Virus record (IMG/VR): IMGVR_UViG_3300017754_001058
Coordinates: 1-61,297 of that record
DNA: 61,297 nt
DNA from: a virus
Taxonomy: Duplodnaviria; Caudoviricetes
Direction: 5' to 3' (one strand)
The notes beneath the pieces are model-generated. The model saw only the letters and a program-made list of their open reading frames with translations, did no database searches and was not told the DNA's origin. The position numbers were made by a program, and so were the translations under genes. Shown here piece after piece: positions 16,438-48,741 of this stretch; position 1 is the stretch's first letter; every line of letters begins with the position of its first letter.

Positions 16438-16438
16438 C

Positions 16439-37403: not shown

Positions 37404-37422
37404 GGGTTGCTCCTTGTTGGCC

Positions 37423-37450
37423 ATCGTACCATTACATTATACAGTGTCAA
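37423..37450 (-). promoter_or_regulatory. Putative sigma70-type promoter
   Basis: - strand TTGACA-N16-TACGAT; shares TTGACACTGTATAATGT with 27761-27777. Confidence 0.7.
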
Positions 37451-37476
37451 ACGGAAAGTGCGATGGCCTAACAGTG

Positions 37477-37650
37477 TTAGCCTGAGTTGTTCTGCATGAA
37501 CTCGATCAGCGCAGCGCGCATCAAGGGTGTGCGCCCTTCGAAGTGATCCACCACCTTCTGCGGTAGTCGGATGGCTACCAGCTTCATGCTCTCGCGCTTC
37601 ACCTTGTTGGGGCCACGCTGCCCCCGATAGCGTTTAGGTTCTTCGGTCAT
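37477..37650 (-). CDS. 57-aa ribbon-helix-helix (BrnA/CopG-like) protein (not in the ORF track)
   Basis: MTEEPKRYRGQRGPNKVKRESMKLVAIRLPQKVVDHFEGRTPLMRAALIEFMQNNSG; AAGGAG RBS; ATGA coupling. Confidence 0.7.
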   Translation of the reverse strand: MTEEPKRYRGQRGPNKVKRESMKLVAIRLPQKVVDHFEGRTPLMRAALIEFMQNNSG

Positions 37651-38519
37651 GATGCTGCTCCTTGGTTAGCCGACACAAAAAACTTATCCTTGCCCACACG
37701 AGCGCCTTGGCCCTCTACATACTCATTGACACCGACCATCTTGAGGATACCCACCGCCCGCTTGATGTGGGGTGGCAAGTGGTCTGTGTCGAAGATGCTT
37801 ACGATTCCGTTGATAACCACGATATACTCGTCACCACGGATCAGCACGGTAGCGCCTTCGGTGCCGCCCATGGCGTTGTTAATCTCTCTCGTAGCCCTGA
37901 GCGCGGCGTAGGCTTCCTCCATACCATCTAGTGATGTCGGGCTTATCCCTACGTCGATAGCCGTCTGTTTCATGTGACCCCAGTTGTTCATGGTGTAGGC
38001 CACCACGAAAGCATTCATCACTTCGAACTTCCGTTCGAATGTCCTCCTATTCATAAAGGCCAGCGTCTCTACAGCGTCCCGAGACTGAGACACTGCCTCC
38101 TTCACCAGTTCGCCAATGCTAGGGCCACGGAAGTTCTTCACGACCAGCTTGAACGCCTTCTGTACGTTAGTGGTGGAAGTGTACGCCCCACGTACCCTAG
38201 CGTCCGCCATGCGTTCGTTGTCGATGCAGATGACATCGCCACGGGAATGGTAGGTCTTCCATATGGAGCCTAGATGGGTGTTACCTTCGTAGACCCGGAA
38301 GTGAGGGACGATATGCTCACCACCCACATTACCGGGCCAGCGCCGGTTCGACACGAACTTCCACCTAGGCCGCGCCTCGGCCAGCCGCTTAATCAGCGGG
38401 AACAGCATCGAAGCGGTCTTGGTATTTTCAGCCGTGGCCGACGATGCGCGGCTCTTCGGTATCTCAAACAGGATGTTGGGCAGTTCCAACGGTATGTAGT
38501 CGTTCTCGATGTCATTCAC
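37647..38519 (-). CDS. Hypothetical protein
   Basis: GTG start at 38519 after GGGAG; ~290 aa. Confidence 0.7.
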   Translation of the reverse strand: MNDIENDYIPLELPNILFEIPKSRASSATAENTKTASMLFPLIKRLAEARPRWKFVSNRRWPGNVGGEHIVPHFRVYEGNTHLGSIWKTYHSRGDVICIDNERMADARVRGAYTSTTNVQKAFKLVVKNFRGPSIGELVKEAVSQSRDAVETLAFMNRRTFERKFEVMNAFVVAYTMNNWGHMKQTAIDVGISPTSLDGMEEAYAALRATREINNAMGGTEGATVLIRGDEYIVVINGIVSIFDTDHLPPHIKRAVGILKMVGVNEYVEGQGARVGKDKFFVSANQGAAS

Positions 38520-38715
38520 GGTGCATCTCCCTTGCTTTTTTCCAAGCATCGAGCGCGTCGATGGCTTCGATAATGTCGGTGTTGCTGGTTCTGATATTGG
38601 GGTGGAAGTGTCCGTTACGGGTGATAAACTCCTCGTAAGGCTCGACCCTAACAATGTTAGTCTTGCAGTCGGCCACGTCATACTCGAAGGAGACTACCCA
38701 CCGCTGCCCCCTCAC
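38512..38715 (-). CDS. Hypothetical protein (AxD[EA]LxA motif)
   Basis: GTGA coupling; IIEAIDALDAW. Confidence 0.6.
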   Translation of the reverse strand: MRGQRWVVSFEYDVADCKTNIVRVEPYEEFITRNGHFHPNIRTSNTDIIEAIDALDAWKKAREMHRE

Positions 38716-39566
38716 CAGTCGTACCCCTTGAGGATGCCATCGAGCTTGCCCTTGAGGTTGGCACGGGTCACCTCGTCATCCTTGATGTCCTCGATGTCGA
38801 TGCCGACCATCGCTACCTCTAGCTGCCTACGTGCAGCTTCCAGCTTGGGGTCCTTGGCCACGTTGAGGTGAGTGAGCATGGCGCACATCTCCTGCGCGTT
38901 GGTGACGAACGTGTCGTGCCACCGCTTCTTGGTGTCGTCGTCGCTCTCGGTCAGCTTGGCAGACATAGCACCCAGCATCTTGTGAAGCTGGTCCCACGGG
39001 GTACGCATAGCCTCGGCCAGACGGTCATTGAACGCCGACTCGTAGCTCTGCGCCATCTCAAGTATGTCCTGCTTTGGCAGGTCCAGACGGAAGTCGCCGC
39101 TCTCCGGCACAGGTGAGAACACCATACGATAGCCGAACTTCTCGCGTACTGCGTTGGCGCTCGGGTAGTCGCTCTGATCGAACAGCGTACCCATGTAGTT
39201 GCTAGCGGTCTGCACCAGCGCGGGATAGTTCCCGATGAACGCATCGACCATTTGGTTAAACGTGTCGCGCCGGATGTTGGCCTCTGCCTTGTAGTCAAGG
39301 AACAAGCTAGTCGGCAGCAGCCTCGCACCCTTGTCAGCCCACGGCAGGGTGCGAGTGTTGTGCCACAGGCGACAGCCTGCAGCGTAGTCGGCAATCTCCT
39401 TGCGGGCCGACGTGCCAGCCATCAGGTTCTTGCGCACCTGCGCTGCATCGCCTGACGTTGCGCCGTTAGAGGTAAGCACACCCTCGGTGGCCCCCTTGTC
39501 CAGCTTGTTGGCGGTCCACACGGATATGTTCATCTCAACGAGAACAGCGGATGATGTGATGCTCAT
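38712..39566 (-). CDS. DUF3150-like protein
   Basis: LV..NISVWT..KLD, TLPW.D.G.RLLP, F...DYP, P.P..GDFR, L..LNV..DP; lies near the AAA/VWA genes. Confidence 0.6.
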   Translation of the reverse strand: MSITSSAVLVEMNISVWTANKLDKGATEGVLTSNGATSGDAAQVRKNLMAGTSARKEIADYAAGCRLWHNTRTLPWADKGARLLPTSLFLDYKAEANIRRDTFNQMVDAFIGNYPALVQTASNYMGTLFDQSDYPSANAVREKFGYRMVFSPVPESGDFRLDLPKQDILEMAQSYESAFNDRLAEAMRTPWDQLHKMLGAMSAKLTESDDDTKKRWHDTFVTNAQEMCAMLTHLNVAKDPKLEAARRQLEVAMVGIDIEDIKDDEVTRANLKGKLDGILKGYDW

Positions 39567-39618
39567 GGGTAGTTGCTCCTAGGTTGTTAGGTGTAGTTGT
39601 CCGGTCTGCTATCCGGTA

Positions 39619-39870
39619 TTAATTGTCTTGGGGTTTACCAGCCAGCTTGGCCACTCGGTACAATGTGTCGGGCAGTAACTGGATGGTCATGTTGTCATCA
39701 CCATTCATCTCTTGGCTCCAGACGTGATACGAGGTCGTTGTGGGCGTGGCTTTGTAGTCCCTCTTGGCCTGATACAGCTCGGCCTTACCCATGATTTCCA
39801 ATATGTTAACGGCATCGCTGACGTCCATCACGTAGTTGTTGTAGCCTATGCGTATGAGTGCTTTACCCAT
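39619..39870 (-). CDS. Hypothetical protein
   Basis: GAGGAG RBS before ATG 39870. Confidence 0.7.
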   Translation of the reverse strand: MGKALIRIGYNNYVMDVSDAVNILEIMGKAELYQAKRDYKATPTTTSYHVWSQEMNGDDNMTIQLLPDTLYRVAKLAGKPQDN

Positions 39871-39883
39871 TGGATTTCTCCTC

Positions 39884-41116
39884 TCAATTGTCTTTGATGT
39901 GAACCGTTTTACCCACGGGGGCAGTGATCTTGCTGCCACGATACGAGTTGCAAACCACCCACATGATGGGTGCATCCCAATCTGAACCCCAGTCATAGAT
40001 TTCCCCGTCAGTCAGCATGATGATGCACTCTGGCTCGATCTTGTTGGTCTTGAGGTAGTGCATCATGGCGCGGGGGTCCGTGCCACCGCCACCCTTCGGC
40101 TTGGTCGAGCTAACAATGTTAGCCATGTCGTTCTCGTCGTAGGTCTCATGGGCTGCAACGTGTGCGTCCCAGTAGATGAGGTCGATCTTCTCGGGGCGAA
40201 CGTCTTCGGCAATGGACTTCACCTCGGACAAGAAGCGGTTGATCTCCTTGCCGCTGATCGAACCTGATGTGTCTACGCCGATAGCCAGAGAGCCGACACG
40301 CTCACCGATCATGGTGGGCATGTAGGTGTCAGAGCCAAGGAACCGACGATTGACACGCCGCCACGATGACGTGTCGCGGGCGTTGCAGATGGACTTGACG
40401 AACTCACGCAGCACCTCACGCCAGTCGATCTGCGGTTCAAGCAGGTCGCCCAGTTCGCGGGACATGTTGCCAGCCTTGTTGCCGATAGCCTTCTTCTCGG
40501 CCATCATGCCTTGGCGGATGGCTTGGTCGATCTCGCGCTCAAGCTCCTTCTTCTCCTCGGGGCTGAGACCCTTGGCACCATCCCAGTCGTGGTCGTCGAA
40601 GCCTTCGCCGCCTTCGCCTTCACCCTCGCCGCCTTTGCCGCCATTCTCTTGCTGCTCTTGCTTGAGTATGTCGAACACCTGCTTGGCGTTCATGCCACGG
40701 AAGCGCGCGTCGAAGCACCCGATGCGCTCACCCTTGGGGTCGCGCGGGAACGCCGCCCACTGCTCGGTCGGGTCGCTGTCCACGATCATCAGGTTGATGA
40801 CGTAATCACAGGCCATGTTGGCGAGGCGCTTGTCAGCATCCCACAGCTTGCGCCAGATAGTCAGGTGACGCAGCGCCTTGTGCATGTTCTCGTGCAGGAT
40901 GACGAAGGCCAACTCCTTGTCGGTCAGGCCCTTGATGAACTCGCGGCCATACATCTCGTCGCGCCCGTTGGTGCAAGCGGTGGGGATGTCGTCTGATATC
41001 TCGGTCTTGCCCACCATCATGATGCCAGACCACAGCGCGAACTTGGGGTTGCGCATCAGGTCGATCTTGACCTTCTTCAGCTTGCGCTCAACCTTGTCTT
41101 TCTGTTCAGCTAACAT
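39884..41116 (-). CDS. Metallopeptidase-like domain plus VWA domain (DUF2201-type)
   Basis: TACTNG, LHENMH (HExxH), ANMACDYVIN, VDTSGS (MIDAS), GGGGTD, LTDG. Confidence 0.88.
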   Translation of the reverse strand: MLAEQKDKVERKLKKVKIDLMRNPKFALWSGIMMVGKTEISDDIPTACTNGRDEMYGREFIKGLTDKELAFVILHENMHKALRHLTIWRKLWDADKRLANMACDYVINLMIVDSDPTEQWAAFPRDPKGERIGCFDARFRGMNAKQVFDILKQEQQENGGKGGEGEGEGGEGFDDHDWDGAKGLSPEEKKELEREIDQAIRQGMMAEKKAIGNKAGNMSRELGDLLEPQIDWREVLREFVKSICNARDTSSWRRVNRRFLGSDTYMPTMIGERVGSLAIGVDTSGSISGKEINRFLSEVKSIAEDVRPEKIDLIYWDAHVAAHETYDENDMANIVSSTKPKGGGGTDPRAMMHYLKTNKIEPECIIMLTDGEIYDWGSDWDAPIMWVVCNSYRGSKITAPVGKTVHIKDN

Positions 41117-41345
41117 TGTTAGTTGCTCCTCGTTGAAGTTCTTTGATCTGCTTGAATACGTCTAACTCGTCCTTGGCCCACATCTTGACGTCATGCGGCC
41201 AACCATTGATCCACAGCGTCACCACCCAGACCATCGGGTCCTTGGGTGACCGCTTCATCACATCGAGTTCTACCTTCTTGCCACGTAGGGACGGGGGCGG
41301 CGTCAGATTACGCCGCCTGTTCCGGTTCATAATATCCCTACTCAC
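41106..41345 (-). CDS. Hypothetical protein (AxDEL motif)
   Basis: GTGA coupling; KMWAKDELDVF. Confidence 0.6.
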   Translation of the reverse strand: MSRDIMNRNRRRNLTPPPSLRGKKVELDVMKRSPKDPMVWVVTLWINGWPHDVKMWAKDELDVFKQIKELQRGATNNVS

Positions 41346-42433
41346 AGCAGGTCTTCGTTCTGCTCCAGCCAGTCAGCGAACGCCTTGTTGGTGAAGGCCA
41401 TCGGTTGCTTTGCTGCGTTGGAACACAGGTTGATGGCGAAGCAAGCCTGCCACTCGCTGTCGAACCGCTCCATGTACTGCATGAACGGGGTCAGCGACTG
41501 CTTATCGACCTTCTGGATGGCACCGAACACAAGCACTGCAGATGCGCCAGCAGACGTAGGTATCTGTGCCGACTTGGGCGCAGCGAGGATGCTCTCCCAC
41601 GACGGAAGCTGATCTTGGTAGTCGATGAACGCCTGCATATCGCGGGCTGCAGACTCACCGATACAGCCCTTGAGCGCAGCGATGGTAGCCTCCGGCCCGT
41701 TCGCATCACGCTGGCTAACAATGTTAGAGGCGATAGCGAGTGAGCGCGGCGAGACGTAGGCAGTCTGCATCTTCTTGGGGTTGTAGATGTAGGGGTTGTC
41801 GCCTTGGCTCTCGTCTGTGTAGCTGGCAAGGGCCTGCGGGAATTGCCGCACCCATGCCATGACAACGGGGTCGATACCGTTGTTGACTGCCCACTCAAGC
41901 CACTGCGTATCGTCGGGTTTAGAGACTGTTATTTCTACAATCCTATTCCGAGTGTGCGCCTTCATGTTATCCCCTACGGCGTCAGTCGTAAGGTTGCCGG
42001 TCATGAAGATGATGGAGCGGTCAGCGTCATCTTCGACTCCCTCGTCGATGAACAAGTCGCCAAGGCGCGGGGCCGTCACCTCCAGCAGCGGGTGCAGCAT
42101 GTTCTTGATAGGCTCCATACCTTTGGTGAACTCGTCGAGCATGATGATGACGGGCTTGCCCTCATGCAGTCGGAACCGCGCGTTGGGATAATAGCGGGTG
42201 GTGCGCGTCTCGTGGTCGATCACAGGCATGGCGATGTCGCCAAGGTCCATGTTGGGTACGTCCATGTATGCTGCGTTATGGGTAGAGGCCAGCTTCTTGG
42301 CGATGAACGAGAGCATGGTGGACTTGCCGATGCCGGGTTCGCCACGGACAAGGAACCGAACCTTGGGGTTGGTCATGATGAGGGTGGCAGCTTGCTTGAG
42401 GCTCACGGTCGAGCCGAAGTTGATCGTGGTCAT
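41342..42433 (-). CDS. AAA+ ATPase (MoxR-like)
   Basis: Walker A GEPGIGKS, Walker B IMLDE, TGN, RNR, SPRS. Confidence 0.9.
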   Translation of the reverse strand: MTTINFGSTVSLKQAATLIMTNPKVRFLVRGEPGIGKSTMLSFIAKKLASTHNAAYMDVPNMDLGDIAMPVIDHETRTTRYYPNARFRLHEGKPVIIMLDEFTKGMEPIKNMLHPLLEVTAPRLGDLFIDEGVEDDADRSIIFMTGNLTTDAVGDNMKAHTRNRIVEITVSKPDDTQWLEWAVNNGIDPVVMAWVRQFPQALASYTDESQGDNPYIYNPKKMQTAYVSPRSLAIASNIVSQRDANGPEATIAALKGCIGESAARDMQAFIDYQDQLPSWESILAAPKSAQIPTSAGASAVLVFGAIQKVDKQSLTPFMQYMERFDSEWQACFAINLCSNAAKQPMAFTNKAFADWLEQNEDLL

Positions 42434-42544
42434 GGTAGTCGTTGCTCCTTATGGATAGCTTAGAACCAGCTAACACTGTTAGTATGGACTCGGACACACT
42501 AGTAAAACTTAAGCCATTGCACCGACTCAAGATTTACTCTTATA

Positions 42545-42573
42545 GTTGTATAGCATTGTTATGCCCATGTCAA
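42545..42573 (-). promoter_or_regulatory. Putative promoter upstream of the AAA operon
   Basis: - strand TTGACA-N17-TACAAC (TATACA 2 nt earlier); the spacer contains CATAACAATG, as at 47091-47119. Confidence 0.6.
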
Positions 42574-42619
42574 GGCATTTTGGCCGAGGGTTCGACCAAG
42601 AGGGTGGGGCCTAAGCCCC

Positions 42620-43465
42620 TTAGAAAAGCCCCCTGAACTTATCGACCGCCAACACGCCGGGAGGCATGGTGACCGCCTCAAGCATCTCGTCACGGTGATG
42701 GCGCAGCATAACCTTCTCGAACTGAGCGATGGGGTCGGCAGGGCCGTACCAAGCACTGCGCCCGTGCCAAGCGAGGTTGACCATCGCCTTGTAGTGGTCT
42801 TCCCTGTCGCTGCTTAGAGCCAAGGCGATTATCTGCTCTGTCGTGAGATACTTAACCAGATCGCGGTCTTGCTCAATCCGACCATCCGCGCCCAGCAGCT
42901 TCTTGATGTTCTTCACATACTTGAAGAACGCAGCGTACTTGGCCCGCACCGTCTTCGCCCCCGTGCGGTTCTTCTTGTGGACAACGCACGGCTTCGGGTT
43001 GGTGAAGGTGTAGGGTGCCAAGCTAACATTGTTAGGGTCGTGCTTGAAGATGTTGTCCTTGCGGGCGTGAAGCAGGTGATGGCCATGTGCCCCATCTCTC
43101 CCACTCCACCACATCGTCGTGCCCTGATAGGAGCTGAACCACAGGGGCAGCACGGCGTTGAGGTATGCGCGTGTGCTGTTGCTCTCATGGCCACCCTGCC
43201 TGACGATGACAGTTCCGTCTGGCTGCCACCGCACGATGTCGGTGTTGTAGAGGCGGACCACGATGTCTTGGTTTTCTTTTCTTATGGTCGCGTAGGTCTT
43301 CTTCCTGTCCCCGAGTGGCTTGCACTCAGGGGTGCGCCCACGGATGGGTTTGATTTCTGCCTCCCAGCGGACTGCTTCTGCGTAGGTGCGCAGCACCGAC
43401 ACGTCGATGGGGTTTGCTCCAAAAGACACTAGTGTTCTCCTTGTTCCGGCTACGTCCGTAGCCAT
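42620..43465 (-). CDS. Hypothetical early protein
   Basis: 281-aa ORF co-oriented with the early operon; start uncertain. Confidence 0.7.
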   Translation of the reverse strand: MATDVAGTRRTLVSFGANPIDVSVLRTYAEAVRWEAEIKPIRGRTPECKPLGDRKKTYATIRKENQDIVVRLYNTDIVRWQPDGTVIVRQGGHESNSTRAYLNAVLPLWFSSYQGTTMWWSGRDGAHGHHLLHARKDNIFKHDPNNVSLAPYTFTNPKPCVVHKKNRTGAKTVRAKYAAFFKYVKNIKKLLGADGRIEQDRDLVKYLTTEQIIALALSSDREDHYKAMVNLAWHGRSAWYGPADPIAQFEKVMLRHHRDEMLEAVTMPPGVLAVDKFRGLF

Positions 43466-43493
43466 AGTTATTTGGCCGCTTAGTTGTTAGGCG

Positions 43494-43685
43494 TCATGCC
43501 ACACCCCTCACATCGTTACGCACATGCCACTCGCGGAATAGAAACTTCCCGCGCCGCCTACCGTATTCGAGGCAAGCCTCGCTCAGTTGAGGTTCGAGTG
43601 CATTGAGTTCGTTGCGTAGCTTATCCACCTTCTTGAGTAGGCGGATGGTCTCTTTGTCCGCACGCGGGTCAGGCTTAGCTAACAT
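43494..43685 (-). CDS. Hypothetical protein
   Basis: GAGGAGG RBS; ATG lies inside palindrome 43679. Confidence 0.65.
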   Translation of the reverse strand: MLAKPDPRADKETIRLLKKVDKLRNELNALEPQLSEACLEYGRRRGKFLFREWHVRNDVRGVA

Positions 43686-43687
43686 TG

Positions 43688-43879
43688 TTAGTCCTCCTCG
43701 CTGCTGTTCTGTTTGGGGGACACTTCGTTGAGGATCGCCTTGGCATGGACGCGCACGGCAAAGAGCCGTGTCTCCAACGCAGCGATGTGGTTGACCACCT
43801 TACGCAGTAGCTTCTTGTCATCAGGGTGTTCGCAGTTGTCCCGCAGGTCGCGCAGGTCTGCCTTGTCTTGTTGGTTCAC
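43688..43879 (-). CDS. Hypothetical protein
   Basis: GAGGAGCAA RBS; stop lies inside palindrome 43679. Confidence 0.65.
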   Translation of the reverse strand: MNQQDKADLRDLRDNCEHPDDKKLLRKVVNHIAALETRLFAVRVHAKAILNEVSPKQNSSEED

Positions 43880-43891
43880 GGTCGTTGCTCC

Positions 43892-44077
43892 TCAGTTGCT
43901 ATCCCAGTGATGGTAGCCATCACTGGTTGTTTCGGTCTCGGCCCTCTTCTCCTCGGCCCGCTCTACCAGCGTAGCCGCAAGGTCACGCCAATCTACTTCG
44001 CTGTCTGTGCCGTACTTCGCCCAGCGTTTCAGCCCCTCCCAATCGAGGGTGCGGAAATAACTACGATCTTTCTTCAT
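43892..44077 (-). CDS. Hypothetical protein
   Basis: AAGGAGCA RBS. Confidence 0.65.
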   Translation of the reverse strand: MKKDRSYFRTLDWEGLKRWAKYGTDSEVDWRDLAATLVERAEEKRAETETTSDGYHHWDSN

Positions 44078-44095
44078 TGGTCTGCTCCTTCTTGG

Positions 44096-44308
44096 TTAAA
44101 TGGTATCGTCACCGTAGCCGTCACCTCCATCACCTTCCGTGTTGCCGTAGCCCTCACCGTCGCCCCAGCCACAGCCGTGGCCGCCACCGTAGACGGAGCC
44201 GTTGCCGATGCCACAACCGTAGCCGTCCCCGATGCTATAATCGAAGCCGTAGCCAGTGTAGAACTCCCCATCTGGTACGAGCTTAGCCCAGAGGTACTCA
44301 CCAATCAT
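44096..44308 (-). CDS. Gly-X repeat peptide, paralogue 2
   Basis: GGAGG RBS, ATG 44308; MIGEYLWAKLVPDGEFYTGYG followed by a G-x-G-x core. Confidence 0.65.
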   Translation of the reverse strand: MIGEYLWAKLVPDGEFYTGYGFDYSIGDGYGCGIGNGSVYGGGHGCGWGDGEGYGNTEGDGGDGYGDDTI

Positions 44309-44591
44309 TTGAGCCTCCATTGCCATCTTCGTCGCCGGATTGGCTGTCGCCCCAGCCATCACCAAAGTTACTAGTCTCGCCACCCCCGTAGCCGTTGCCG
44401 TCGTTGGTACCGGCACCATAACCATAACCATAACCCTCGCCGTAGCCGGAGCCGTTGCCGTAGCCCCAGCCATCACCGTTGCCGTAGCTGTTGTGGTAGT
44501 CACCGTAGCCAGTGGCGAACTCCCCTTCGGGTATGAGCTTAGCCCAGAGGTGGGTAGGGGCAGCACCAACGCTGCCCCCGTTGTCACTCAC
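44298..44591 (-). CDS. Gly-X repeat peptide, paralogue 1
   Basis: GTGA coupling; HLWAKLIPEGEFATGYG followed by GNGDGWGYGNGSGYGEGYGYG. Confidence 0.65.
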   Translation of the reverse strand: MSDNGGSVGAAPTHLWAKLIPEGEFATGYGDYHNSYGNGDGWGYGNGSGYGEGYGYGYGAGTNDGNGYGGGETSNFGDGWGDSQSGDEDGNGGSNDW

Positions 44592-44857
44592 CACGCTGGC
44601 CACTTGTCATCATCGCATGGGATGAGGGCGATCATCGCCACTGGCACGACGGTCACCAGCGGTGCCGGGTCATCCAGCACGGTCTCTTTGGTCGGGCCTT
44701 TGACCAGTTGGTTGAGGCCGCGCTCCGTACCCCAACGGCGCACAGTGCGGGCGTTGTGCAGATGGTAGAAGTCACCATCGAACGTGATGCTCTTGGCTAC
44801 CCACACATGGCCAGCACTGGCGACTACGAGGGTCGTACCCCAAGTTCTGTTGTTCAT
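44588..44857 (-). CDS. Small beta-rich protein (DUF6948-like)
   Basis: AAGGAGCAA RBS; LVVASAGHVW...L.NAR.VRRWGT..GL.QL..GP. Confidence 0.6.
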   Translation of the reverse strand: MNNRTWGTTLVVASAGHVWVAKSITFDGDFYHLHNARTVRRWGTERGLNQLVKGPTKETVLDDPAPLVTVVPVAMIALIPCDDDKWPAW

Positions 44858-44876
44858 GGTCGTTGCTCCTTGCTTC

Positions 44877-45224
44877 TTAGTTCTTGGTCTTGCGCTTGAT
44901 GCTGGGACGCCCCCGCTTACGCATCTTGACGCCCACCTCCAGCAGACGGTTGCGCACGTGGGTTGGCGAGTGGCCCGTGATCCTGCCCACCTGCTCAAGA
45001 CTGTAGCCTGTGGCATACAGGGTGATGAACCTATCCAACTTCAGTTCTTCTGTCGTCGGGGCTTTGTATGTCTCTTCGCGTGTCTCTTCGCGTGTCTCTT
45101 CGCGCAGTAGCTCTGCATACTTGCGCCCGTCAGCTTCCACCTTGCCCCGGACATACCAGCCAAGGCCGTAGCCGCCTACCCACGCAGCCGCGCCGATCAG
45201 ACCCATGATCGTTCCAGTATCCAT
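44877..45224 (-). CDS. Membrane-anchored HTH protein
   Basis: N-terminal TM; REET x3; LYATGYSLEQVGRITGHSPTHVRNRL..GV..RKRGRP. Confidence 0.7.
   Translation of the reverse strand: MDTGTIMGLIGAAAWVGGYGLGWYVRGKVEADGRKYAELLREETREETREETYKAPTTEELKLDRFITLYATGYSLEQVGRITGHSPTHVRNRLLEVGVKMRKRGRPSIKRKTKN
45069..45104. repeat. 12-bp tandem repeat x3 (TGTCTCTTCGCG), in frame
   Basis: Read directly from the sequence. Confidence 0.9.
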
Positions 45225-45248
45225 TGTTCTTCTCCTTCTCTAACAGTG

Positions 45249-45452
45249 TTAGTCTTGCACGAACTCGTAAGCCACTTGGCCTGCCTGTTGCTCTTCATAG
45301 GCGGCGAACTCGGTGCCATCCGTGAAGTGCAGGCGGATGCCTTCACCGGGCCACGGCTCATCGTTCTTGAAGGCGGGTTTGGCCACGAACTCCCACTTAG
45401 CGATGGTCTTACCTACCAGCGTATCCAGCAGGGATATCAGTTCTTCATCCAT
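45249..45452 (-). CDS. Hypothetical protein
   Basis: GAAGGAGAAGAACAATG start; stop inside palindrome 45240. Confidence 0.7.
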   Translation of the reverse strand: MDEELISLLDTLVGKTIAKWEFVAKPAFKNDEPWPGEGIRLHFTDGTEFAAYEEQQAGQVAYEFVQD

Positions 45453-45476
45453 TGTTCTTCTCCTTCCCTAACAATG

Positions 45477-45788
45477 TTAGCTTGGTTCTTGCCCCCTGAG
45501 CCACCGCTGCAGGTTGGTGAACGCACCCAGTTCATCGACGGCGTTGGTGTAGAATTGCGCGCCATCGTTGGGGTAGTGCTTACGCACGTAGGCCCATGTG
45601 TTATCGGGGTGCAGCGGTTTCCACGCTATGTCGAGGTTCCACGTCCAATCATCATGGACGCAGCCCTCTAGGGTCTCGATGAACATGATACCTAAGGGGC
45701 CGTTGTGCGGGTCTGCTTCCTTACGGTGATGGATTTTGAGTTCCTCGACGTTCAAGTCTGAGTCGAGGTTTATCTTCCACTCGTGCAT
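45477..45788 (-). CDS. Hypothetical protein (AxDELxA motif)
   Basis: AAGGAGCAA RBS; TNAVDELGAF; stop inside palindrome 45468. Confidence 0.65.
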   Translation of the reverse strand: MHEWKINLDSDLNVEELKIHHRKEADPHNGPLGIMFIETLEGCVHDDWTWNLDIAWKPLHPDNTWAYVRKHYPNDGAQFYTNAVDELGAFTNLQRWLRGQEPS

Positions 45789-45813
45789 CAGCCTTGCTCC
45801 TTCCTTGCTTGGG

Positions 45814-46026
45814 TCACGAAACCCAGACGAAGCGGTAGCCGGTGTAACGGCGCAGGCCCACTTCAAGGTTGATGTAGTCCTCACTCACGGTGCGCGCACC
45901 GGGGAGCCCATCACTGAACTGCCACTCGGTGCAGCCCAGCGCGGACTCAGGCCATACGCCATCGTCAACTTGAGCCTGCGTGACGGGACATCCTTTCACT
46001 ACCCATACGGTGTCACCAGTAATCAT
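45814..46026 (-). CDS. Hypothetical protein
   Basis: TGATG coupling; GAGGA RBS. Confidence 0.55.
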   Translation of the reverse strand: MITGDTVWVVKGCPVTQAQVDDGVWPESALGCTEWQFSDGLPGARTVSEDYINLEVGLRRYTGYRFVWVS

Positions 46027-46220
46027 CAGCTTGTCCTCTTGGGGTTTAACTGCGCTAGTTCTGCGCGGTTGGTGATGAGCATGTAGTTGCTCTTGTTTAT
46101 GGGTGCGCTGCACCATTGCACCTGCTTAGCTGCGTGTTCACCGCATGGGAGACAAGTGCGGTAGCCTAACGCTAACCGGGCAGGGGGGTAGACGTCACCG
46201 CAGGATACGCACTTAGCCAT
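46026..46220 (-). CDS. DksA/TraR-type C4 zinc-finger protein
   Basis: CVSCGDVYPPARLALGYRTCLPC; GGGAGCAA RBS. Confidence 0.7.
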   Translation of the reverse strand: MAKCVSCGDVYPPARLALGYRTCLPCGEHAAKQVQWCSAPINKSNYMLITNRAELAQLNPKRTS

Positions 46221-46365
46221 TGTCTTGCTCCCGCCCGCAGAACTCATCCCACAACTCCTTGGGGATGCTGATGGTGACGTTGTCCTCGAACTCGGCAATC
46301 ACTTCAGCCTCGTTGAGTATGTCCTCTGCCAATGCTTGGCGGGCTTGGTCGTTCATGTGTCCCAT
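46213..46365 (-). CDS. Small acidic hypothetical protein (not in the ORF track)
   Basis: AAGGAGCAA RBS; MGHMNDQARQALAEDILNEAEVIAEFEDNVTISIPKELWDEF... Confidence 0.6.
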   Translation of the reverse strand: MGHMNDQARQALAEDILNEAEVIAEFEDNVTISIPKELWDEFCGREQDNG

Positions 46366-46389
46366 TGTCTTGCTCCTTCTCTAACAGTG

Positions 46390-46542
46390 TTAGGCTTCGT
46401 GGGGATCGAGGTGGGCGAGGATGCGCTCCCGCACATCGCGGGGTTCGCGCTCCAGCACATCCATAAGTGCATGAAGCAGGGTGTTGTCCGTCCAGCCGCG
46501 CTCGTCGGCTATCGTCCAAGCAGAGTTGAAGAAGCTGCCCAT
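46390..46542 (-). CDS. Small hypothetical protein
   Basis: GGGGAG RBS; stop inside palindrome 46381. Confidence 0.55.
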   Translation of the reverse strand: MGSFFNSAWTIADERGWTDNTLLHALMDVLEREPRDVRERILAHLDPHEA

Positions 46543-46609
46543 GCTCACTCCCCCTGCCCGAAGGTGGCGATGTAGGTCGCCGTGCTCTTGATCCACATGA
46601 TGAACTGCT

Positions 46610-46720
46610 TCACTTGCCCTCCTCCTGCATCTTGTCGTGTAGGTTGCGCTCTGCCTGCTCGTTGAGCCAAGCGATGTATTCTTCGAGGTCGATCTGGTCG
46701 TCCTTGGTTTGCTCTAACAT
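46610..46720 (-). CDS. 36-aa acidic peptide (not in the ORF track)
   Basis: AAGGAGGAG RBS; ATG inside palindrome 46714; MLEQTKDDQIDLEEYIAWLNEQAERNLHDKMQEEGK. Confidence 0.55.
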   Translation of the reverse strand: MLEQTKDDQIDLEEYIAWLNEQAERNLHDKMQEEGK

Positions 46721-46734
46721 TGTTAGGCTCCTCC

Positions 46735-46998
46735 TTATACCAGCCAGTAGCGGCGCAGGGCTTCGAGCGTGGCGGTGTTGTCGCTCATGTCGAGAGAGCC
46801 AATGGCATGACCCAGCGCGATGGAGCGGGCATCCAGCACATCATCAGGCACACCGAGGTCATCACGCAGGTCAGCGGCGAGTGCGTCGGTGGTGAGTTCG
46901 ACACAGGCGCGCAGCGTGTTGGTCATCGGGGCGATACGCCCCTCAAGCACAGTGCGCAGGGTGAGGTTGGTGACGTGGGAGAAATCGGTATTCATCAT
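46735..46998 (-). CDS. Hypothetical early protein
   Basis: AGGAGCAA RBS directly after palindrome 47010. Confidence 0.65.
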   Translation of the reverse strand: MMNTDFSHVTNLTLRTVLEGRIAPMTNTLRACVELTTDALAADLRDDLGVPDDVLDARSIALGHAIGSLDMSDNTATLEALRRYWLV

Positions 46999-47090
46999 CT
47001 TGCTCCTACCTAACAATGTTAGGCTTTTGTATGCCGTGCCATCCAGCACGGGCTTGGTTGCGGCTAAGCTGGTCTTGCTCGCCTATTATT

Positions 47091-47119
47091 ACCATACTAC
47101 ATTGTTATGTCCGTGTCAA
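47091..47119 (-). promoter_or_regulatory. Putative early promoter
   Basis: - strand TTGACA-N17-TATGGT; spacer CGGACATAACAATGTAG. Confidence 0.7.
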
Positions 47120-47189
47120 GTGATCTTGGCTGGAGGTGCGACCGGAAGGCGGACGAGTGAGGCGCAGACGGTGGGCGGGAGGGGCAACA

Positions 47190-47500
47190 GGGTTGTAAGG
47201 GAAAAGGGTGCTTTGTAAGACGGATGTTAGGAAAGCGCCTTACAAAAGGGAGGTCGGAAAACCCTTTGAAACGAGTGTGTTGTGTGTTGTTGTATTGTAT
47301 TGTTATAATGTAAGTAGAAAAAACAAGTATAACCGACTCTGTGGGATTCGTGCATCTGCACTTGCCGGAGGGCCAAAGCGAAAACTCAAAAAGGGATCGT
47401 TCTCTAAAAACGCCCTTACAATATAACAATGCTTACATTGCTTGAAAACAAAGGAATGTTATGCTTACAACCGCTACCACCAAAGTCTTACGTCATAACA
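47190..47500. other. AT-rich non-coding region with repeated CTTACA/TGTAAG hexamers, candidate origin
   Basis: About 7 copies in both orientations around AT-rich tracts (47280-47330, 47400-47470). Confidence 0.45.
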
Positions 47501-47572
47501 TTGTTAGCCAGCCGCCAGCCGCTTAGTCAATACGGTGCTAGGAACTATCATAAAGTGCCTTGACGCAGGCCC

Positions 47573-47602
47573 AAAAAAACCCCATGCACGAAGTGCATGG
47601 GG
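47573..47602 (-). terminator. Intrinsic terminator after gene 47672..48220
   Basis: 10-bp perfect stem CCCCATGCAC/GTGCATGGGG plus U7 on the - strand. Confidence 0.9.
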
Positions 47603-47671
47603 GTCGAGGCGGGGAGCCGAGGGGCCGGGAGGGCGGGGGGAACCTAACATTGTTAGGCTCCCCCTCTTGCG

Positions 47672-48220
47672 TTAGGCGATAGCGGCCACGTCAATGCCCA
47701 GAGCCTTGAGGGCGGCGGTGATGTGAACCTGCGCAGCCTGCACCTTGGCGGGCAAGTCGCCGCCTTGCTTGTCGTTGAACTTGTAGAGGGCGGTCAATTC
47801 CTCGATGTTGCGCAGCATGGCGGAGCGAGGGGCAGGGCCAGCGCCGTCGGACTCTTCCGCTTCCGGTGCGACAGGGGTGCCGTCGAGAGTAGCCTTGCCG
47901 CTAGGTGCCAAGCCATTGCGCAGGTTCCGGCCATAGTCACAGATACGCTTGTAGGGAACGCTAGGGTTAGTGTGGCCAGCCTTGCGGAACGCTTCATACA
48001 GTTCACCCTTGAGAACCTTGAGCGCCTTAGCGTTATCGCTCTTTTCAGTGGGTGCCATGTCGAACCATGCAAAGCCCATCAACAGATTGAACTTGGCGGC
48101 GATACGAATGTGGCTTCCGTATACCTTGCCAGTCGCTTCAACCATGTCGGTCAGGATAGTGGCAAGCGGAGTAGCGGCAACGTCAATGTTCACGCCTTCG
48201 ACAGTGGTGATGGTGGTCAT
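47672..48220 (-). CDS. Hypothetical protein, monocistronic first gene of the early arm
   Basis: AAGGA RBS; own terminator; flanked by palindromes 47644 and 48357. Confidence 0.8.
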   Translation of the reverse strand: MTTITTVEGVNIDVAATPLATILTDMVEATGKVYGSHIRIAAKFNLLMGFAWFDMAPTEKSDNAKALKVLKGELYEAFRKAGHTNPSVPYKRICDYGRNLRNGLAPSGKATLDGTPVAPEAEESDGAGPAPRSAMLRNIEELTALYKFNDKQGGDLPAKVQAAQVHITAALKALGIDVAAIA

Positions 48221-48741
48221 AGAATAGTCCTTCGGTATGCCGCACTATCCAGTGCGGGCTTGGGTTGCATCGGGGCGGCCAGTCCGTCTCGATGAACAAT
48301 TTATCTCCCATTACGCTGCTAGATGCAAGGAAAATCGATCGATACCGGCCAAAAATCTAACAATGTTAGCCTATGTCCCCTGTTTGTTCTCAAAAATAGG
48401 GGGTGGGGTCGAATGTTCCCTATCTGTTCCCCCACCCTAGGGCCACCCCCCTTGGCAGGGGCTTCGGAGTCCCAACGCCGCATACATAGTGTTTTGCTCA
48501 GTCAATCACGTTCCCCCAAGTTTCGACCCCCCACCCCCCTCTTTTTTCCCACCGAACGCCCGCCACCTCGTCCACAGAGAGACCCCCCGTCACTTTTTGC
48601 TTGGGTCCCCTACCCCCGGGGGGTATAAAAATTAGGGGGTGAGATGCCTCGGTAGTCACTGGGGCTTTAGCTGGCCAGCACTCACCCCTTTACAACTACT
48701 CTCCTACACTGTTACACAGCACGTCTGCTCCCCCAAACCGG

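What the first reader, a model, noticed from the sequence alone, without database searches (positions are those of the whole stretch)
37468..48369. Fifteen copies of a 13-bp palindrome CTAACANTGTTAG blanket the early region: a candidate operator/roadblock array
Seen: perfect copies start at 37468, 38648, 40110, 41110, 41715, 42470, 43023, 43679, 45240, 45468, 46381, 46714, 47010, 47644 and 48357, with one-mismatch copies at 47495 and 27979. Scanning by eye I saw none in either late operon. Twelve fixed bases would occur about 0.004 times by chance in 61 kb. Four copies sit inside coding sequence (38648, 40110, 41715, 43023, encoding TNIVR, ANIVS, SNIVS, PNNVS), so selection acts on the nucleotide sequence itself. 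The central base is free. Inference: binding sites for a dimeric protein that coats or silences the whole early arm, analogous to mycobacteriophage L5/Bxb1 stoperators but symmetric. Alternatively they mark first-injected DNA for protection or positioning.
Basis: partly seen in the sequence, partly recalled or inferred. Interest (0 to 1): 0.9.

Follow-up and report, generated by a model that had tools for sequence, protein, structure and literature searches.

The report
Palindrome array across phage early genes
A freshwater phage carries 15 exact copies of a 13-base palindrome only in its early genes, relatives carry their own versions at the same places, and it is most likely a set of docking sites for a fast-evolving phage regulator of early gene expression.

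Summary
There are 15 exact CTAACANTGTTAG copies, all within 37468-48369, against 0 in 100 shuffles. The window is a whole 61.3-kb phage genome.

The sites are functional and conserved:
- The array recurs in IMG/VR relatives, each lineage with its own palindrome. The same half-site occurs with spacers of 0, 1, 2 or 3, and other lineages have quite different arms.
- In four near-complete relatives the array is again confined to the early region.
- A cultured relative, Rhizobium phage RHph_TM3_14A, has 20 copies of TTACC-N6-GGTAA.
- In-gene copies are held by codon choice. The ATPase peptide SNIV(R/S) spells the motif in 11 of 11 spacer-1 genomes and in 0 of 5 others with the same peptide.
- Early sigma70-like promoters are typically followed by a copy about 50 nt downstream (33 of 72 promoter-like hits).

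Best reading (about 0.42): operators or roadblocks for a dimeric phage protein that limits early transcription. The top candidate is the first early gene, with a predicted homodimer.

Main rival (about 0.33): an RNA hairpin element. One copy caps a stem that covaries between relatives.

It is a symmetric, early-arm-restricted variant of known phage repeat arrays. The binding protein and the mechanism are unproven.

The parts
48357..48369 (.). Motif copy 1. Lies 28 nt upstream of the -35 of the predicted gene-1 promoter P1.
   Evidence: The same placement, 9-35 nt upstream of the -35, is seen in L002, L003, L032, L006 and L028.
48300..48328 (-). P1, a predicted sigma70-like promoter of gene 1: TTGCAT-N17-GATAAA.
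   Evidence: Homologous promoters in relatives: TTGACA-N17-TATAAT in L006, TTGCAA-N18-TATATT in L003.
47672..48220 (-). Gene 1, 182 aa, the first early gene. An orphan helical protein and the best candidate for the motif-binding factor.
   Evidence: No Pfam or PHROG hit. AF2 pLDDT 86 with no fold match. Homodimer ipSAE 0.81 against a best control of 0.00. All 31 loci found through this family carry TAACA...TGTTA copies.
47636..47664 (-). Extended 29-nt hairpin with motif copy 2 (47644-47656) at its apex, directly after the gene-1 stop codon.
   Evidence: Folds at -23.1 kcal/mol, z -6.8. Of 12 predicted pairs, 5 show compensatory changes across 5 genomes.
47570..47602 (-). Intrinsic terminator CCCCATGCAC..GTGCATGGGG followed by T7.
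   Evidence: Conserved in L002 and L003.
47495..47507 (.). One-mismatch copy (sense CTAACAATGTTAT) in the 650-nt non-coding stretch.
47091..47119 (-). P2 promoter, TTGACA-N17-TATGGT. A degenerate copy, ATAACAATGTAGT (47108-47096), lies in its spacer.
47010..47022 (.). Motif copy 3, centred about +68 from the predicted P2 start site, immediately 5' of the Shine-Dalgarno (SD) sequence and the ATG at 46998.
46714..46726 (.). Motif copy 4. The ATG inside it is a likely start codon, with the SD sequence AAGGAGG upstream.
46381..46393 (.). Motif copy 5. Its TAA is the stop of the upstream ORF, and an SD sequence follows directly.
45468..45480 (.). Motif copy 6. Its TAA is the stop of the upstream ORF, and an SD sequence follows directly.
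45240..45252 (.). Motif copy 7. Its TAA is the stop of the upstream ORF, and an SD sequence follows directly.
43679..43691 (.). Motif copy 8. Its TAA is the stop of the upstream ORF and its ATG is the start of the next.
43023..43035 (.). Motif copy 9, inside the 281-aa gene (42620-43465), encoding PNNVS in a variable loop or indel.
42539..42573 (-). Promoter-like region upstream of the ATPase gene. A degenerate copy, ATAACAATGCTAT (42562-42550), lies in its spacer.
   Evidence: Homologous promoters in L002 and L003.
42470..42482 (.). Motif copy 10, in the 5' leader of the MoxR-like ATPase gene.
41715..41727 (.). Motif copy 11, inside the ATPase gene (41342-42433), encoding SNIVS.
   Evidence: In 11 of 11 spacer-1 genomes the codons spell the motif. 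In 0 of 5 other genomes with the same peptide do they.
41110..41122 (.). Motif copy 12. Its ATG is the start codon of the DUF2201/VWA gene (39884-41116).
   Evidence: copies at the VWA start in L002 and L003.
40110..40122 (.). Motif copy 13, inside the VWA gene, encoding ANIVS.
   Evidence: Conserved base for base in 8 of 8 spacer-1 genomes down to 64% protein identity (two of them with A in place of the first C), with no indel against the other lineages.
38648..38660 (.). Motif copy 14, reading TNIVR in the 67-aa ORF 38715..38512.
37477..37650 (-). 57-aa RHH-like protein with a basic N-terminal arm, the last gene of the early unit. Its stop codon lies in copy 15.
   Evidence: Membership of the RHH family is inconclusive.
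37468..37480 (.). Motif copy 15, the last one, lying 17 nt upstream of the -35 of P3.
37423..37450 (-). P3 promoter, TTGACA-N16-TACGAT, in front of the Hjc-like resolvase and replication module.
   Evidence: Conserved in relatives, with the last copy centred -56 to -93 from the start site.
27979..27991 (.). One-mismatch copy inside the SNF2 helicase gene.
   Evidence: A copy at the equivalent distance in complete relative G001, position 62488, with the same central base.

Best explanation
The 13-bp palindromes are cis-acting recognition sites for a sequence-specific phage protein that evolves quickly and binds double-stranded DNA as a symmetric dimer. The sites sit about 50 bp downstream of each early sigma70-type promoter, at gene junctions, and inside long genes, so that no gap exceeds about 1.6 kb. 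They also sit at both borders of the early unit. A bound protein would block or slow host RNA polymerase and so limit or shut off the whole early arm. That would make this a symmetric, lytic-phage counterpart of operator-plus-stoperator silencing.

The most likely binder is the product of the first early gene (47672-48220), a dimeric orphan protein. That would make the circuit self-limiting.

Shown: the sites exist, are selected as nucleotide sequence, are lineage-specific, are confined to the early arm, and have a fixed geometry relative to promoters. Inferred: DNA-level binding, which protein binds, and repression as the outcome.
For: 1. Non-random and confined to the early arm. The window has 15 copies against 0 expected. 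In relatives the counts are 13 of 14 within 9.4 kb of 66.5 kb, 9 of 9 within 8.9 kb of 62.9 kb, 5 of 5 within 6.4 kb of 64.9 kb, and 16 of 16 within 11.6 kb of 61.4 kb.

2. Nucleotide-level selection inside genes. The ATPase peptide SNIV(R/S) is written TCT AAC ATT GTT AGN in 11 of 11 spacer-1 genomes. In 5 of 5 other genomes the same peptide uses other codons. The VWA site is identical in 8 of 8 spacer-1 genomes and absent in 14 of 14 others, with no indel. In-gene sites argue for a function that does not depend on translation start sites.

3. Dyad symmetry reaches the centre, at positions that could not pair in a hairpin. Examples are A.T with spacers 0-2, C.G in CCCAC-W-GTGGG, C..G in GTGAC-NN-GTCAC, and A.T in AAGTA-S-TACTT.

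4. Spacer length is fixed within a genome: 17 of 17, 23 of 23, 19 of 19 and 16 of 16 in representative genomes. Four loci show mixtures (L036, L040, L026, L079), as do L095 and L115.

5. Variants of the outermost pair are one-sided (A..G 34, C..T 17, G..G 12) far more often than compensated (A..T 5). There is no G.U-over-A.C bias in the stems: 19 against 13 (summed).

6. Operator-like positions. Copies lie inside the promoter spacer, overlapping the extended -10, in L028 (twice) and L036. Copies lie just upstream of the -35 of P1 and P3 in many genomes: 14 promoter hits have a copy centred -56 to -93. Of 72 promoter-like hits, 33 have a copy centred +32 to +98.

7. The cultured relative RHph_TM3_14A has TTACC-N6-GGTAA, whose half-sites lie about one helical turn apart, 20 times.

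8. Candidate binder. The gene-1 family occupies the first early position and diverges fast. It is absent from L020, the one close relative without an array. All 31 loci found through it carry TAACA...TGTTA copies. The homodimer score is 0.81 against a best control of 0.00. That mark was reached by 20 of 30 proteins solved as pairs of one chain and 1 of 23 solved as single chains. The runs agree in at least 92% of contacts, and the partner's pLDDT is at least 82.

9. The standard RNA hairpin is weak: -2.2 kcal/mol, z -1.05.
Against: - The copy after gene 1 lies at the apex of a 12-bp stem with 5 compensatory pairs in 5 genomes. That is selection for a folded strand, not for a duplex site.
- Distant lineages have 12- to 13-nt arms around free 3- to 6-nt (one 13-nt) loops, conserved A.A internal loops, and a 6:1 orientation bias.
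- The basal GGACA/TGTCC arms occur with spacers of 1 and of about 19-20.
- Across spacers 0-3 the conserved part always equals a 5-bp stem plus a 3-4 nt loop.
- The centre is A-rich on the sense strand in the spacer-2 and spacer-3 groups: AA 76 against TT 20, AAA 8 against TTT 0.
- The usual position is in the 5' leader right before the SD sequence, where a translational operator would sit. An operator at about +50 is unusual for repression of initiation.
- Half-site spacing changes by 0-3 bp between related lineages, and L036 mixes two spacings. That is awkward for a rigid dimer.
- No DNA-binding fold was recognised in gene 1.
- The link between gene 1 and the array is confounded by shared ancestry. 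The loss case is a single lineage (L020).
Confidence: 0.42

Rival explanations
1. The element works as an RNA hairpin in the early transcripts: a 5-bp stem with a 3-4 nt loop in this genome, longer in other lineages. A lineage-specific phage RNA-binding protein or nuclease would recognise it and act next to ribosome-binding sites and between cistrons. The outcome could be translational repression, mRNA processing or decay, or loading of an antitermination factor in the manner of a nut site.
For: - The hairpin after gene 1 covaries: 5 of 12 pairs are compensated and 1 of 60 cells is broken.
- The conserved part always equals a 5-bp stem across spacers 0-3. The spacer-0 lineage adds an outer C-G in 7 of 8 sites, and the outer pair is weakest with spacer 3.
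- Long-arm lineages fold at -11 to -13 kcal/mol with free loops.
- The architecture is promoter, then a 30-80 nt leader, then the element, then the SD sequence, in many lineages.
- In the spacer-2 group 66 of 103 sites have a start codon inside the motif or within 45 nt downstream.
- The centre is A-rich on the sense strand.
- Asymmetric elements show a 6:1 orientation bias.
Against: - Complementarity extends to bases that cannot pair, in at least 4 independent arm families.
- Changes at the outer pair are not compensated: 63 one-sided against 5 compensated.
- There is no wobble bias: G.U 19 against A.C 13.
- Ordinary copies fold no better than shuffles: -2.2 kcal/mol, z -1.05.
- Some copies are probably not transcribed. 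They lie upstream of P1 and P3, or inside promoter spacers in L028 and L036.
- The in-gene copies are translated through. That does not suit a translational operator or a nut-type site.
Confidence: 0.33
2. The repeats are mainly recombination junctions or mobile regulatory cassettes, like the PeSLs of T4-type phages. They would let small early genes be swapped between co-infecting phages. Any regulatory role would be secondary.
For: - The early region is hypervariable. Of 31 ORF calls queried (some overlapping), 12 had no tblastn hit in any of the 80 loci, 9 of them in the variable stretch 47000-43900.
- One indel after gene 1 is flanked by two copies in L002. The homology ends lie 13 and 12 nt from motif centres.
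- The same kind of event was reported for the Cluster O repeats (PMC4351075, section 8 read).
- PeSLs are composite promoter/terminator motifs that mediate indels (PMC4122927, abstract read).
Against: - Only 2 of 34 homology-block ends lie within 15 nt of a motif centre, against about 4.4% expected by chance.
- Copies inside conserved core genes are kept by codon choice.
- 13 bp is short for homologous exchange.
- Wholesale replacement of the motif between lineages points to a co-evolving reader.
Confidence: 0.08
3. The sites are read as extruded single-stranded DNA hairpins. They could be promoters for a hairpin-specific polymerase as in phage N4 (recalled from memory), or priming or replication signals.
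For: - The stem and loop sizes resemble the N4 early-promoter hairpins (recalled, from no call).
- The MoxR-like ATPase and VWA gene pair is shared with N4-like phages.
- One copy sits in a covarying stem.
Against: - Strong consensus sigma70 promoters precede the early genes.
- No RNA polymerase was found in the 50 proteins scanned against Pfam and/or PHROGs.
- Some copies overlap start codons or lie 2-3 nt from the SD sequence, so transcripts starting just downstream of them would lack a ribosome-binding site.
- The central base varies.
Confidence: 0.05
4. The sites are bound by a host transcription factor or nucleoid protein that the phage exploits.
For: A palindrome with an A/T centre is typical of bacterial regulator sites. 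No phage binder has been identified.
Against: - Close relatives differ in spacer (0, 1, 2 or 3), and more distant ones have unrelated arms.
- L020 lacks the array entirely.
- Such variation would require a different host factor for each lineage.
- Host genomes were not searched.
Confidence: 0.05

Closest known systems
17-bp dyad repeats of Cluster O mycobacteriophages (TGTTCGG-NNN-CCGAACA; PMC4351075, abstract and section 8 read)
   Same: - Dozens of invariant inverted-repeat arms around a short A/T-rich centre.
- Mostly in short intergenic gaps or near gene starts, with some copies inside genes.
- A slight tendency for the A-rich centre to lie on the sense strand.
- Indels flanked by copies.
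- The authors suggest a dimeric binding protein and leave the function unknown.
   Different: - The Cluster O repeats are spread throughout the genome, though the intergenic ones are concentrated in one arm. Here all exact copies lie in the early arm.
- In Cluster O only 4 of 34 sites are near promoters. Here early promoters are typically followed by a copy near +50.
- The phage clade and the motif are unrelated.
- Here a series of lineage-specific replacements is documented.
Operators and stoperators of Cluster A mycobacteriophages (L5 and relatives; PMC9283540, abstract and passages read)
   Same: - More than 20 13-mer sites in promoters and in short intergenic spaces.
- Proposed to stop initiation and elongation and so silence whole operons.
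   Different: - Stoperators are asymmetric, depend on orientation, are bound by a monomeric two-domain immunity repressor of a temperate phage, and are found throughout the genome.
- Here the sites are symmetric and confined to the early arm.
- No integrase or immunity repressor was seen in the 50 proteins scanned.
PeSL cassettes of T4-type phages (PMC4122927, abstract read; PMC2839356, search listing only)
   Same: - A repeated early-promoter plus stem-loop module in front of small, variable early genes.
- Implicated in indels.
   Different: - PeSLs are larger composite terminator/promoter units in hyperplastic regions.
- Here the conserved unit is 13 bp, also lies inside core genes, and shows little enrichment at homology breakpoints.
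Lambda nut/boxB hairpins and the N antiterminator (recalled from memory, from no call)
   Same: - A 5-bp stem with a small A-rich loop a few tens of nt downstream of early promoters.
- The first early gene is followed by a terminator.
   Different: - Lambda has two nut sites, not 15.
- No boxA-like element or arginine-rich N-like protein was identified.
- Copies occur inside translated genes and upstream of promoters.
KorB operators of plasmid RK2 and the conserved inverted repeats of Streptomyces phage phiC31 (both recalled from memory; the phiC31 literature search returned nothing relevant)
   Same: About a dozen or more short palindromic operators dispersed over a replicon and bound by one global regulator.
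   Different: - No ParB/KorB-like protein or phiC31-type repressor was detected here.

Membership tests
Cluster A stoperators | Asymmetric 13-mer whose orientation follows the direction of transcription | tested here: not met
   The motif is a perfect palindrome. Definition taken from PMC9283540.
Cluster A stoperators | Bound by a monomeric immunity repressor (HTH plus a second domain) of a temperate phage | tested here: not met
   No relative of such a repressor and no integrase was found among the 50 proteins scanned. The scan did not cover the whole proteome.
Cluster A stoperators | Many sites in promoters and short intergenic spaces of transcribed operons | tested here: met
Cluster A stoperators | Sites stop transcription elongation | not testable with these tools
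   Needs reporter or run-off assays.
Phage dyad-symmetric repeat arrays of unknown function (Cluster O type) | Tens of copies of invariant inverted arms around a short variable A/T-rich centre, absent by chance expectation | tested here: met
   compared with PMC4351075 section 8.
Phage dyad-symmetric repeat arrays of unknown function (Cluster O type) | Positions conserved among related genomes, in both intergenic and in-gene locations | tested here: met
PeSL cassettes | Composite early promoter plus stem-loop or terminator, repeated in variable regions | tested here: inconclusive
   The module promoter, then leader, then palindrome is repeated. However, the palindrome also occurs without a promoter and inside core genes.
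PeSL cassettes | Indel ends coincide with the repeats | tested here: inconclusive
   There is one clear case after gene 1. Overall 2 of 34 block ends lie within 15 nt of a motif centre. HSP ends are only a crude measure of breakpoints.
nut/boxB-type antitermination sites | RNA hairpin in the leader of each early operon, upstream of terminators, bound by a small arginine-rich antiterminator | tested here: inconclusive
   The leader position is met and a terminator follows gene 1. No N-like protein was found. In-gene copies and copies upstream of promoters do not fit.
Ribbon-helix-helix proteins (37477-37650) | Beta-alpha-alpha topology with a family sequence signature | tested here: inconclusive
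   The model has helices at 31-37 and 42-54 after an extended segment, but pLDDT is only 65.5. Only weak single-member Pfam hits were found, to CcdA (0.026) and BrnA (0.038). There was no significant PDB match.
Cro/C1-type HTH (26148-26378) | Pfam HTH_3 above the gathering score | tested here: met
   25.3 bits against a cut-off of 23, E 1.6e-5.

The most novel reading that the evidence does not exclude
A large, mostly uncultured clade of about 60-kb phages carries a modular brake on its early operons. The brake consists of an orphan dimeric protein with no known fold, encoded by the first early gene, and an array of its palindromic sites placed about 50 nt after every early promoter, at cistron junctions and inside long genes. 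Protein and sites re-specify together between lineages: arms are replaced and the spacer steps through 0, 1, 2 and 3. The same element may act both as a DNA operator and as an RNA hairpin. This would be a symmetric stoperator-like system in lytic phages and a natural library of orthogonal protein/site pairs.
Probability: 0.25. Interest if true: 0.8.

Novelty: new variant of a known kind. Interest (0 to 1): 0.62.

Why it matters
Arrays of short dyad repeats have been seen in a few phage groups, but their function is unsolved. This case adds what those lacked.
- It provides a deep comparative series: dozens of lineages with swapped arms and spacers of 0 to 3.
- It provides proof of nucleotide-level selection. 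Identical peptides spell the motif only in genomes that use that motif.
- It shows a fixed geometry relative to promoters.
- It yields a short list of candidate readers, with two of the obvious ones excluded.
- It identifies a cultured relative, Rhizobium phage RHph_TM3_14A, that has its own array. The question can therefore be tested at the bench.

If the pairing of protein and site is confirmed, it would explain how these phages time or limit early expression using host polymerase alone. It could also supply many orthogonal regulator/operator pairs.

Tried and rejected
- Nucleotide search of the early region against the phage collection: no match.
- Rfam, whole window, gathering thresholds: 0 matches.
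- Literature search for the motif strings: 13 papers held at least one of the strings and 11 were listed; none of those listed is relevant. Search for RHph phages plus palindromes: nothing relevant. The phiC31 search returned irrelevant papers. I therefore found the motif in print nowhere within these searches.
- Sequencing runs: no RNA holder is listed. The holders are freshwater and other metagenome DNA runs.
It is present in 5 of 5 near-complete relatives, but the recognition helix (S/T)R(Q/M)TVY(N/Q/S)WF is nearly invariant across lineages with unrelated palindromes.
The presumed DNA-facing strand residues differ within the spacer-1 group (A/L, P/Y, N/H, S/H). L020 keeps nearly the same strand as L028, yet has no TAACA-N(0-7)-TGTTA copy and only one at N8.
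- Sigma70_r4/Mor-like 32774-33088: not conserved in relatives.
- The HTH_58-like 44877-45224 has no relative in the loci.
- The 344-aa (37647-38681) and 284-aa (38712-39566, DUF3150-like per the atlas) proteins do not track the motif class. There was no PDB or PHROG match.
- Gene-1 fold: no meaningful match. The best Foldseek PDB E-value was 2.5, VIA-align Z was at most 6.0, and the best BFVD E-value was 1.1. The only named atlas lead is DUF3102 at 0.85.
- The first early protein of RHph_TM3_14A against the gene-1 profile: no similarity.
- Promoter scan of RHph_TM3_14A: not above shuffles, 12 against 9.9.
- Pseudomonas phage KPP25: no palindrome array in the 38.8 kb examined.
- A -10-like element at a fixed distance downstream of the motif (the MotA-box idea): not seen in the position counts.
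- Extension of the stem at ordinary copies: flank pair 2 is Watson-Crick in only 88 of 277 sites.
- Breakpoint test for recombination: 2 of 34.
- Rows dropped before counts: sites within 40 nt of a locus end and sites with identical 25-nt flanks were removed. Loci with fewer than 5 copies were left out. Many loci are close relatives, so site counts are not independent events.

Full report
**1. Observation**

All copies lie between 37468 and 48369. In 100 dinucleotide-preserving shuffles the mean was 0.00. Allowing one mismatch adds only 27979 and 47495 (0.08 expected). On the sense strand both carry the same change, a final T in place of G.

The window is a complete 61,297-base virus record. 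Two freshwater metagenome runs hold 94-96% of its sampled words.

**2. Genome context**

Genes on the - strand run from 48220 down to 23233.
- First come many small ORFs without known families.
- Then come a MoxR-like ATPase (41342-42433) and a DUF2201 metallopeptidase/VWA protein (39884-41116).
- Two conserved unknowns follow, then an Hjc-like resolvase (37104-37424).
- The replication set comes last: family A polymerase, PD-(D/E)XK nuclease, SNF2 helicase and DUF927 primase-helicase.

The + strand holds terminase, portal and virion genes.

The array therefore covers one arm: the first 11 kb of the leftward transcription units. Sigma70-like promoters bound and subdivide this arm:
- P2 at 47119-47091 and P3 at 37450-37423.
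- A weaker P1 at 48328-48300, read by eye.
- A promoter-like region at 42573-42539.

A strong intrinsic terminator follows gene 1 at 47602-47570.

**3. Position of the copies**

Positions were read on the sense strand.
- The motif's TAA is the stop codon of the upstream ORF at 46381, 45468, 45240, 43679 and 37468.
- Its central NTG is a plausible start codon at 46714, 43679 and 41110. The last of these is the start of the VWA gene.
- A Shine-Dalgarno (SD) sequence follows within 2-3 nt at 47010, 46381, 45468 and 45240.
- Four copies lie inside ORFs, all in the frame xCT AAC ANT GTT AGx.
- Two copies lie just upstream of a -35: 48357 before P1 and 37468 before P3.

The largest gap between neighbouring exact copies is 1561 bp.

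**4. Relatives**

A search of IMG/VR with the VWA protein gave 103 relatives, of which 80 loci were kept. The exact 13-mer is present in 18 of the 80. Apart from single copies in L010 and L031, these are the loci whose VWA protein is at least 64% identical.

Most other loci have their own repeated palindrome in the same region:

| Lineage | Repeated palindrome |
|---|---|
| VWA identity 57-62% | CTAACA-NN-TGTTAG |
| L028/L029 | TAACA-NNN-TGTTA |
| L010 | TAAC-NNN-GTTA |
| L030 | TTAGTGAC-NN-GTCACTAA |
| L079 | AGCGGACA-W-TGTCCGCT |
| L071/L073 | TTTCCCAC-W-GTGGGAAA |
| L049 | GTTAAGTA-S-TACTTAAC |
| L036 | TAAACA-N1-2-TGTTTA |
| L034, L038 and kin | GGACAAAGTGTCA-NNN-TGACACTTTGTCC |
| L055/L046 | GGACAAACTTAG-N6-CTAAGAATGTCC |
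| L077 | GGACAAAGTTAY-N5-GTAACTTTGTCC |
| L041 and kin | CGACA-N3/4-TGTCG with A-rich internal loops |

A second search, with the gene-1 family, found 31 loci, and all 31 carry TAACA...TGTTA copies.
- 26 have spacer 1 only. One of these, a truncated locus, has a single copy.
- 2 have spacer 0 only (7 and 8 copies).
- 1 has spacer 2 only.
- 2 are mixed.
- At least five of the 31 loci lie on contigs already seen in the first search.

L020 (62% VWA identity) has no array at all.

In four near-complete relatives the lineage's palindrome is again confined to one region of 6-12 kb.

The nearest cultured phage is Rhizobium phage RHph_TM3_14A (polymerase 37% identical). It has the same gene order and 20 copies of TTACC-N6-GGTAA across its non-structural arm. 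Pseudomonas phage KPP25 has no such array.

**5. Selection on the nucleotides**

The ATPase peptide SNIV(R/S) is conserved in nearly all lineages. All 11 spacer-1 genomes examined write it TCT AAC ATT GTT AGN, which spells the motif. The 5 genomes of other motif classes with the same peptide use TCG/AGC/TCC, GTA/GTC/GTG and CGN/AAG instead.

The VWA site is identical in 8 of 8 spacer-1 genomes, although the neighbouring codons differ. It aligns without an indel to GDIINS, ANIINS and similar peptides in 14 other genomes.

The site in the 281-aa gene lies in a loop present only in the four closest genomes.

The in-gene copies are therefore created and kept by selection, not by insertion of a mobile element.

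**6. Geometry relative to promoters**

I scanned 24 genomes for strong sigma70-like promoters near the arrays, which gave 72 hits.
- 33 hits have the nearest copy centred +32 to +98 from the predicted start site, mostly +48 to +60.
- 14 hits have it centred -56 to -93. These are P1-type promoters and the promoter before the resolvase and replication module.
- 3 hits have it centred at -16, inside the spacer and overlapping an extended -10 (L028 twice, L036 once).

One search shows the same module in lineages with unrelated palindromes: promoter, then a 30-80 nt leader, then the palindrome, then the SD sequence and start codon.

In the window, P2 and the ATPase promoter also carry degenerate copies in their spacers.

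**7. DNA site or folded strand?**

For a duplex site read by a symmetric dimer:
- Symmetry continues to bases that cannot pair in a hairpin, in at least four independent arm families.
- Spacer length is fixed within nearly every genome.
- The outermost pair varies on one side only (63 cases) far more often than with compensation (5 cases).
- There is no G.U-over-A.C bias: 19 against 13.
- Some copies are probably untranscribed, and some are translated through.
- The ordinary RNA hairpin folds at only -2.2 kcal/mol.

For a folded strand:
- The copy after gene 1 caps a 12-pair stem (-23.1 kcal/mol). Its extension differs in each of five genomes yet stays paired: 5 pairs show double changes and 1 of 60 cells is broken. 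The other 4 of the 9 genomes aligned have no such extension there.
- The conserved part is always a 5-bp stem with a 3-4 nt loop across spacers 0-3.
- Distant lineages have long arms, free loops and conserved A.A internal loops, mostly in one orientation.
- The centre is A-rich on the sense strand in two groups.
- The usual site is next to the ribosome-binding site.

I weigh the symmetry, the fixed spacing, and the in-gene and promoter-embedded copies slightly more heavily. I commit to the operator/roadblock reading at 0.42 and put the RNA-hairpin reading at 0.33. The two are not exclusive. A palindromic operator is also a hairpin in the transcript, and the stem built around the copy after gene 1 may use that.

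**8. Which protein reads the motif?**

*The Cro/C1-type HTH protein (26148-26378)* is present in 5 of 5 near-complete relatives.

*The RHH-like protein (37477-37650)* occurs in the 31 loci of the TAACA groups, and also in L020 and L010. Two points count against it:
- Its presumed DNA-facing residues vary within the spacer-1 group.
- L020 keeps nearly the same strand as L028 yet has no array.

*Gene 1 (47672-48220)* is the first early gene and is flanked by copies.
- Its family diverges fast. The spacer-1 and spacer-3 groups share one family. The spacer-2 group has a remote homologue at the same place (hhalign probability 66%, E 5.7e-5).
- Distant lineages have a family of about 200-230 aa at the same place, often in two copies.
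- L020 and L030 have unrelated singletons there.
- The model has a four-helix N-terminal domain, a disordered linker and a C-terminal helical hairpin (pLDDT 86).
- No fold match was found.
- A symmetric homodimer is predicted. The score is 0.81 against a best control of 0.00. The mark was reached by 20 of 30 proteins solved as pairs of one chain and 1 of 23 solved as single chains. The runs agree in at least 92% of contacts, and the partner's pLDDT is at least 82.

This makes gene 1 the best candidate, by position, co-variation and dimer prediction only. Nothing shows that it binds nucleic acid.

**9. Comparison with known systems**

The closest described analogue is the 17-bp dyad repeat of Cluster O mycobacteriophages. 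It has 34 copies, invariant arms and an A/T-rich centre. It is often intergenic, some indels are flanked by copies, and its function is unknown (PMC4351075, section 8 read).

The Cluster A operator/stoperator system offers the closest mechanism. Its defining features, asymmetric oriented sites and a monomeric immunity repressor (PMC9283540, passages read), are not met here.

PeSL cassettes share the repeated promoter plus stem-loop logic (PMC4122927, abstract read). The breakpoint test gave only 2 of 34.

Lambda nut sites, KorB operators and the phiC31 inverted repeats are comparisons from memory only.

**10. Verdict**

The finding is real, clearly functional, and conserved as a principle across a large phage clade. 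It is a new variant of a known but unexplained kind of phage repeat array. An RNA-level role is a serious rival.

Supplementary files of papers were not seen and are unlikely to bear on these claims.

Noticed in passing
window 36721-37101 (-): A free-standing 126-aa homologue of the C-terminal domain of the RNA polymerase alpha subunit (Pfam RNA_pol_A_CTD, E 2.8e-21). It lies just after P3 and is present only in the 4 closest loci. A phage-encoded alpha-CTD decoy or adaptor would be unusual.
   Followed up: partly
window 46026-46247 (-): A 73-aa C4 zinc-ribbon protein in the early array. It has a weak Zn_ribbon_15 hit and is conserved in 32 of 80 loci. By its sequence pattern it looks like a TraR/DksA-type factor that binds RNA polymerase; that reading comes from memory.
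   Followed up: no
window 47023-47671: About 650 nt without a convincing ORF, between the gene-1 terminator and P2. It holds an A/C-rich tract and repeated TGTAAGCAT-like words. There is no Rfam match. It could be an origin or a non-coding RNA.
   Followed up: no
window 48370-48740: The divergent non-coding region has G-rich and C-rich runs and repeated GAACAAAC-like words. These are conserved in L002, L003 and L032. It may be a packaging site or the genome end.
   Followed up: no
window 1147-6876 (+) and 16388-22972 (+): Two giant proteins of 1909 aa and 2194 aa. The first has no PHROG or Pfam hit. The second matches DarB-like antirestriction families only in its last 800 residues.
   Followed up: no
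window 32774-33088 (-); L073:12045-12842, L075:7887-8684, L016:9176-9880: A 104-aa protein consisting only of sigma70 region 4, also Mor-like. Some relatives instead carry 234-265-aa sigma-like proteins.
   Followed up: partly
window 44096-44587 (-): A 163-aa ORF with a T/A/V/M-rich low-complexity N-terminal half and a G/Y/D-rich tail. It has no family hit and may not be a real gene.
   Followed up: no
L020 (whole locus): A relative with 62% VWA identity that has lost the palindrome array. It keeps consensus promoters and a conserved leader word, GAAGTTAGGGAGTT. It is a natural loss case for comparison.
   Followed up: partly
L086:30610-33693 (MN988472.1): The 1027-aa protein annotated 'putative integrase' in Rhizobium phage RHph_TM3_14A sits where the window has its DUF927 primase-helicase. 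The annotation is probably wrong.
   Followed up: no
L092 and L093: In the spacer-0 lineage the palindrome is CCTAACATGTTAGG in 7 of 8 sites, one pair longer on the outside than in the window.
   Followed up: partly
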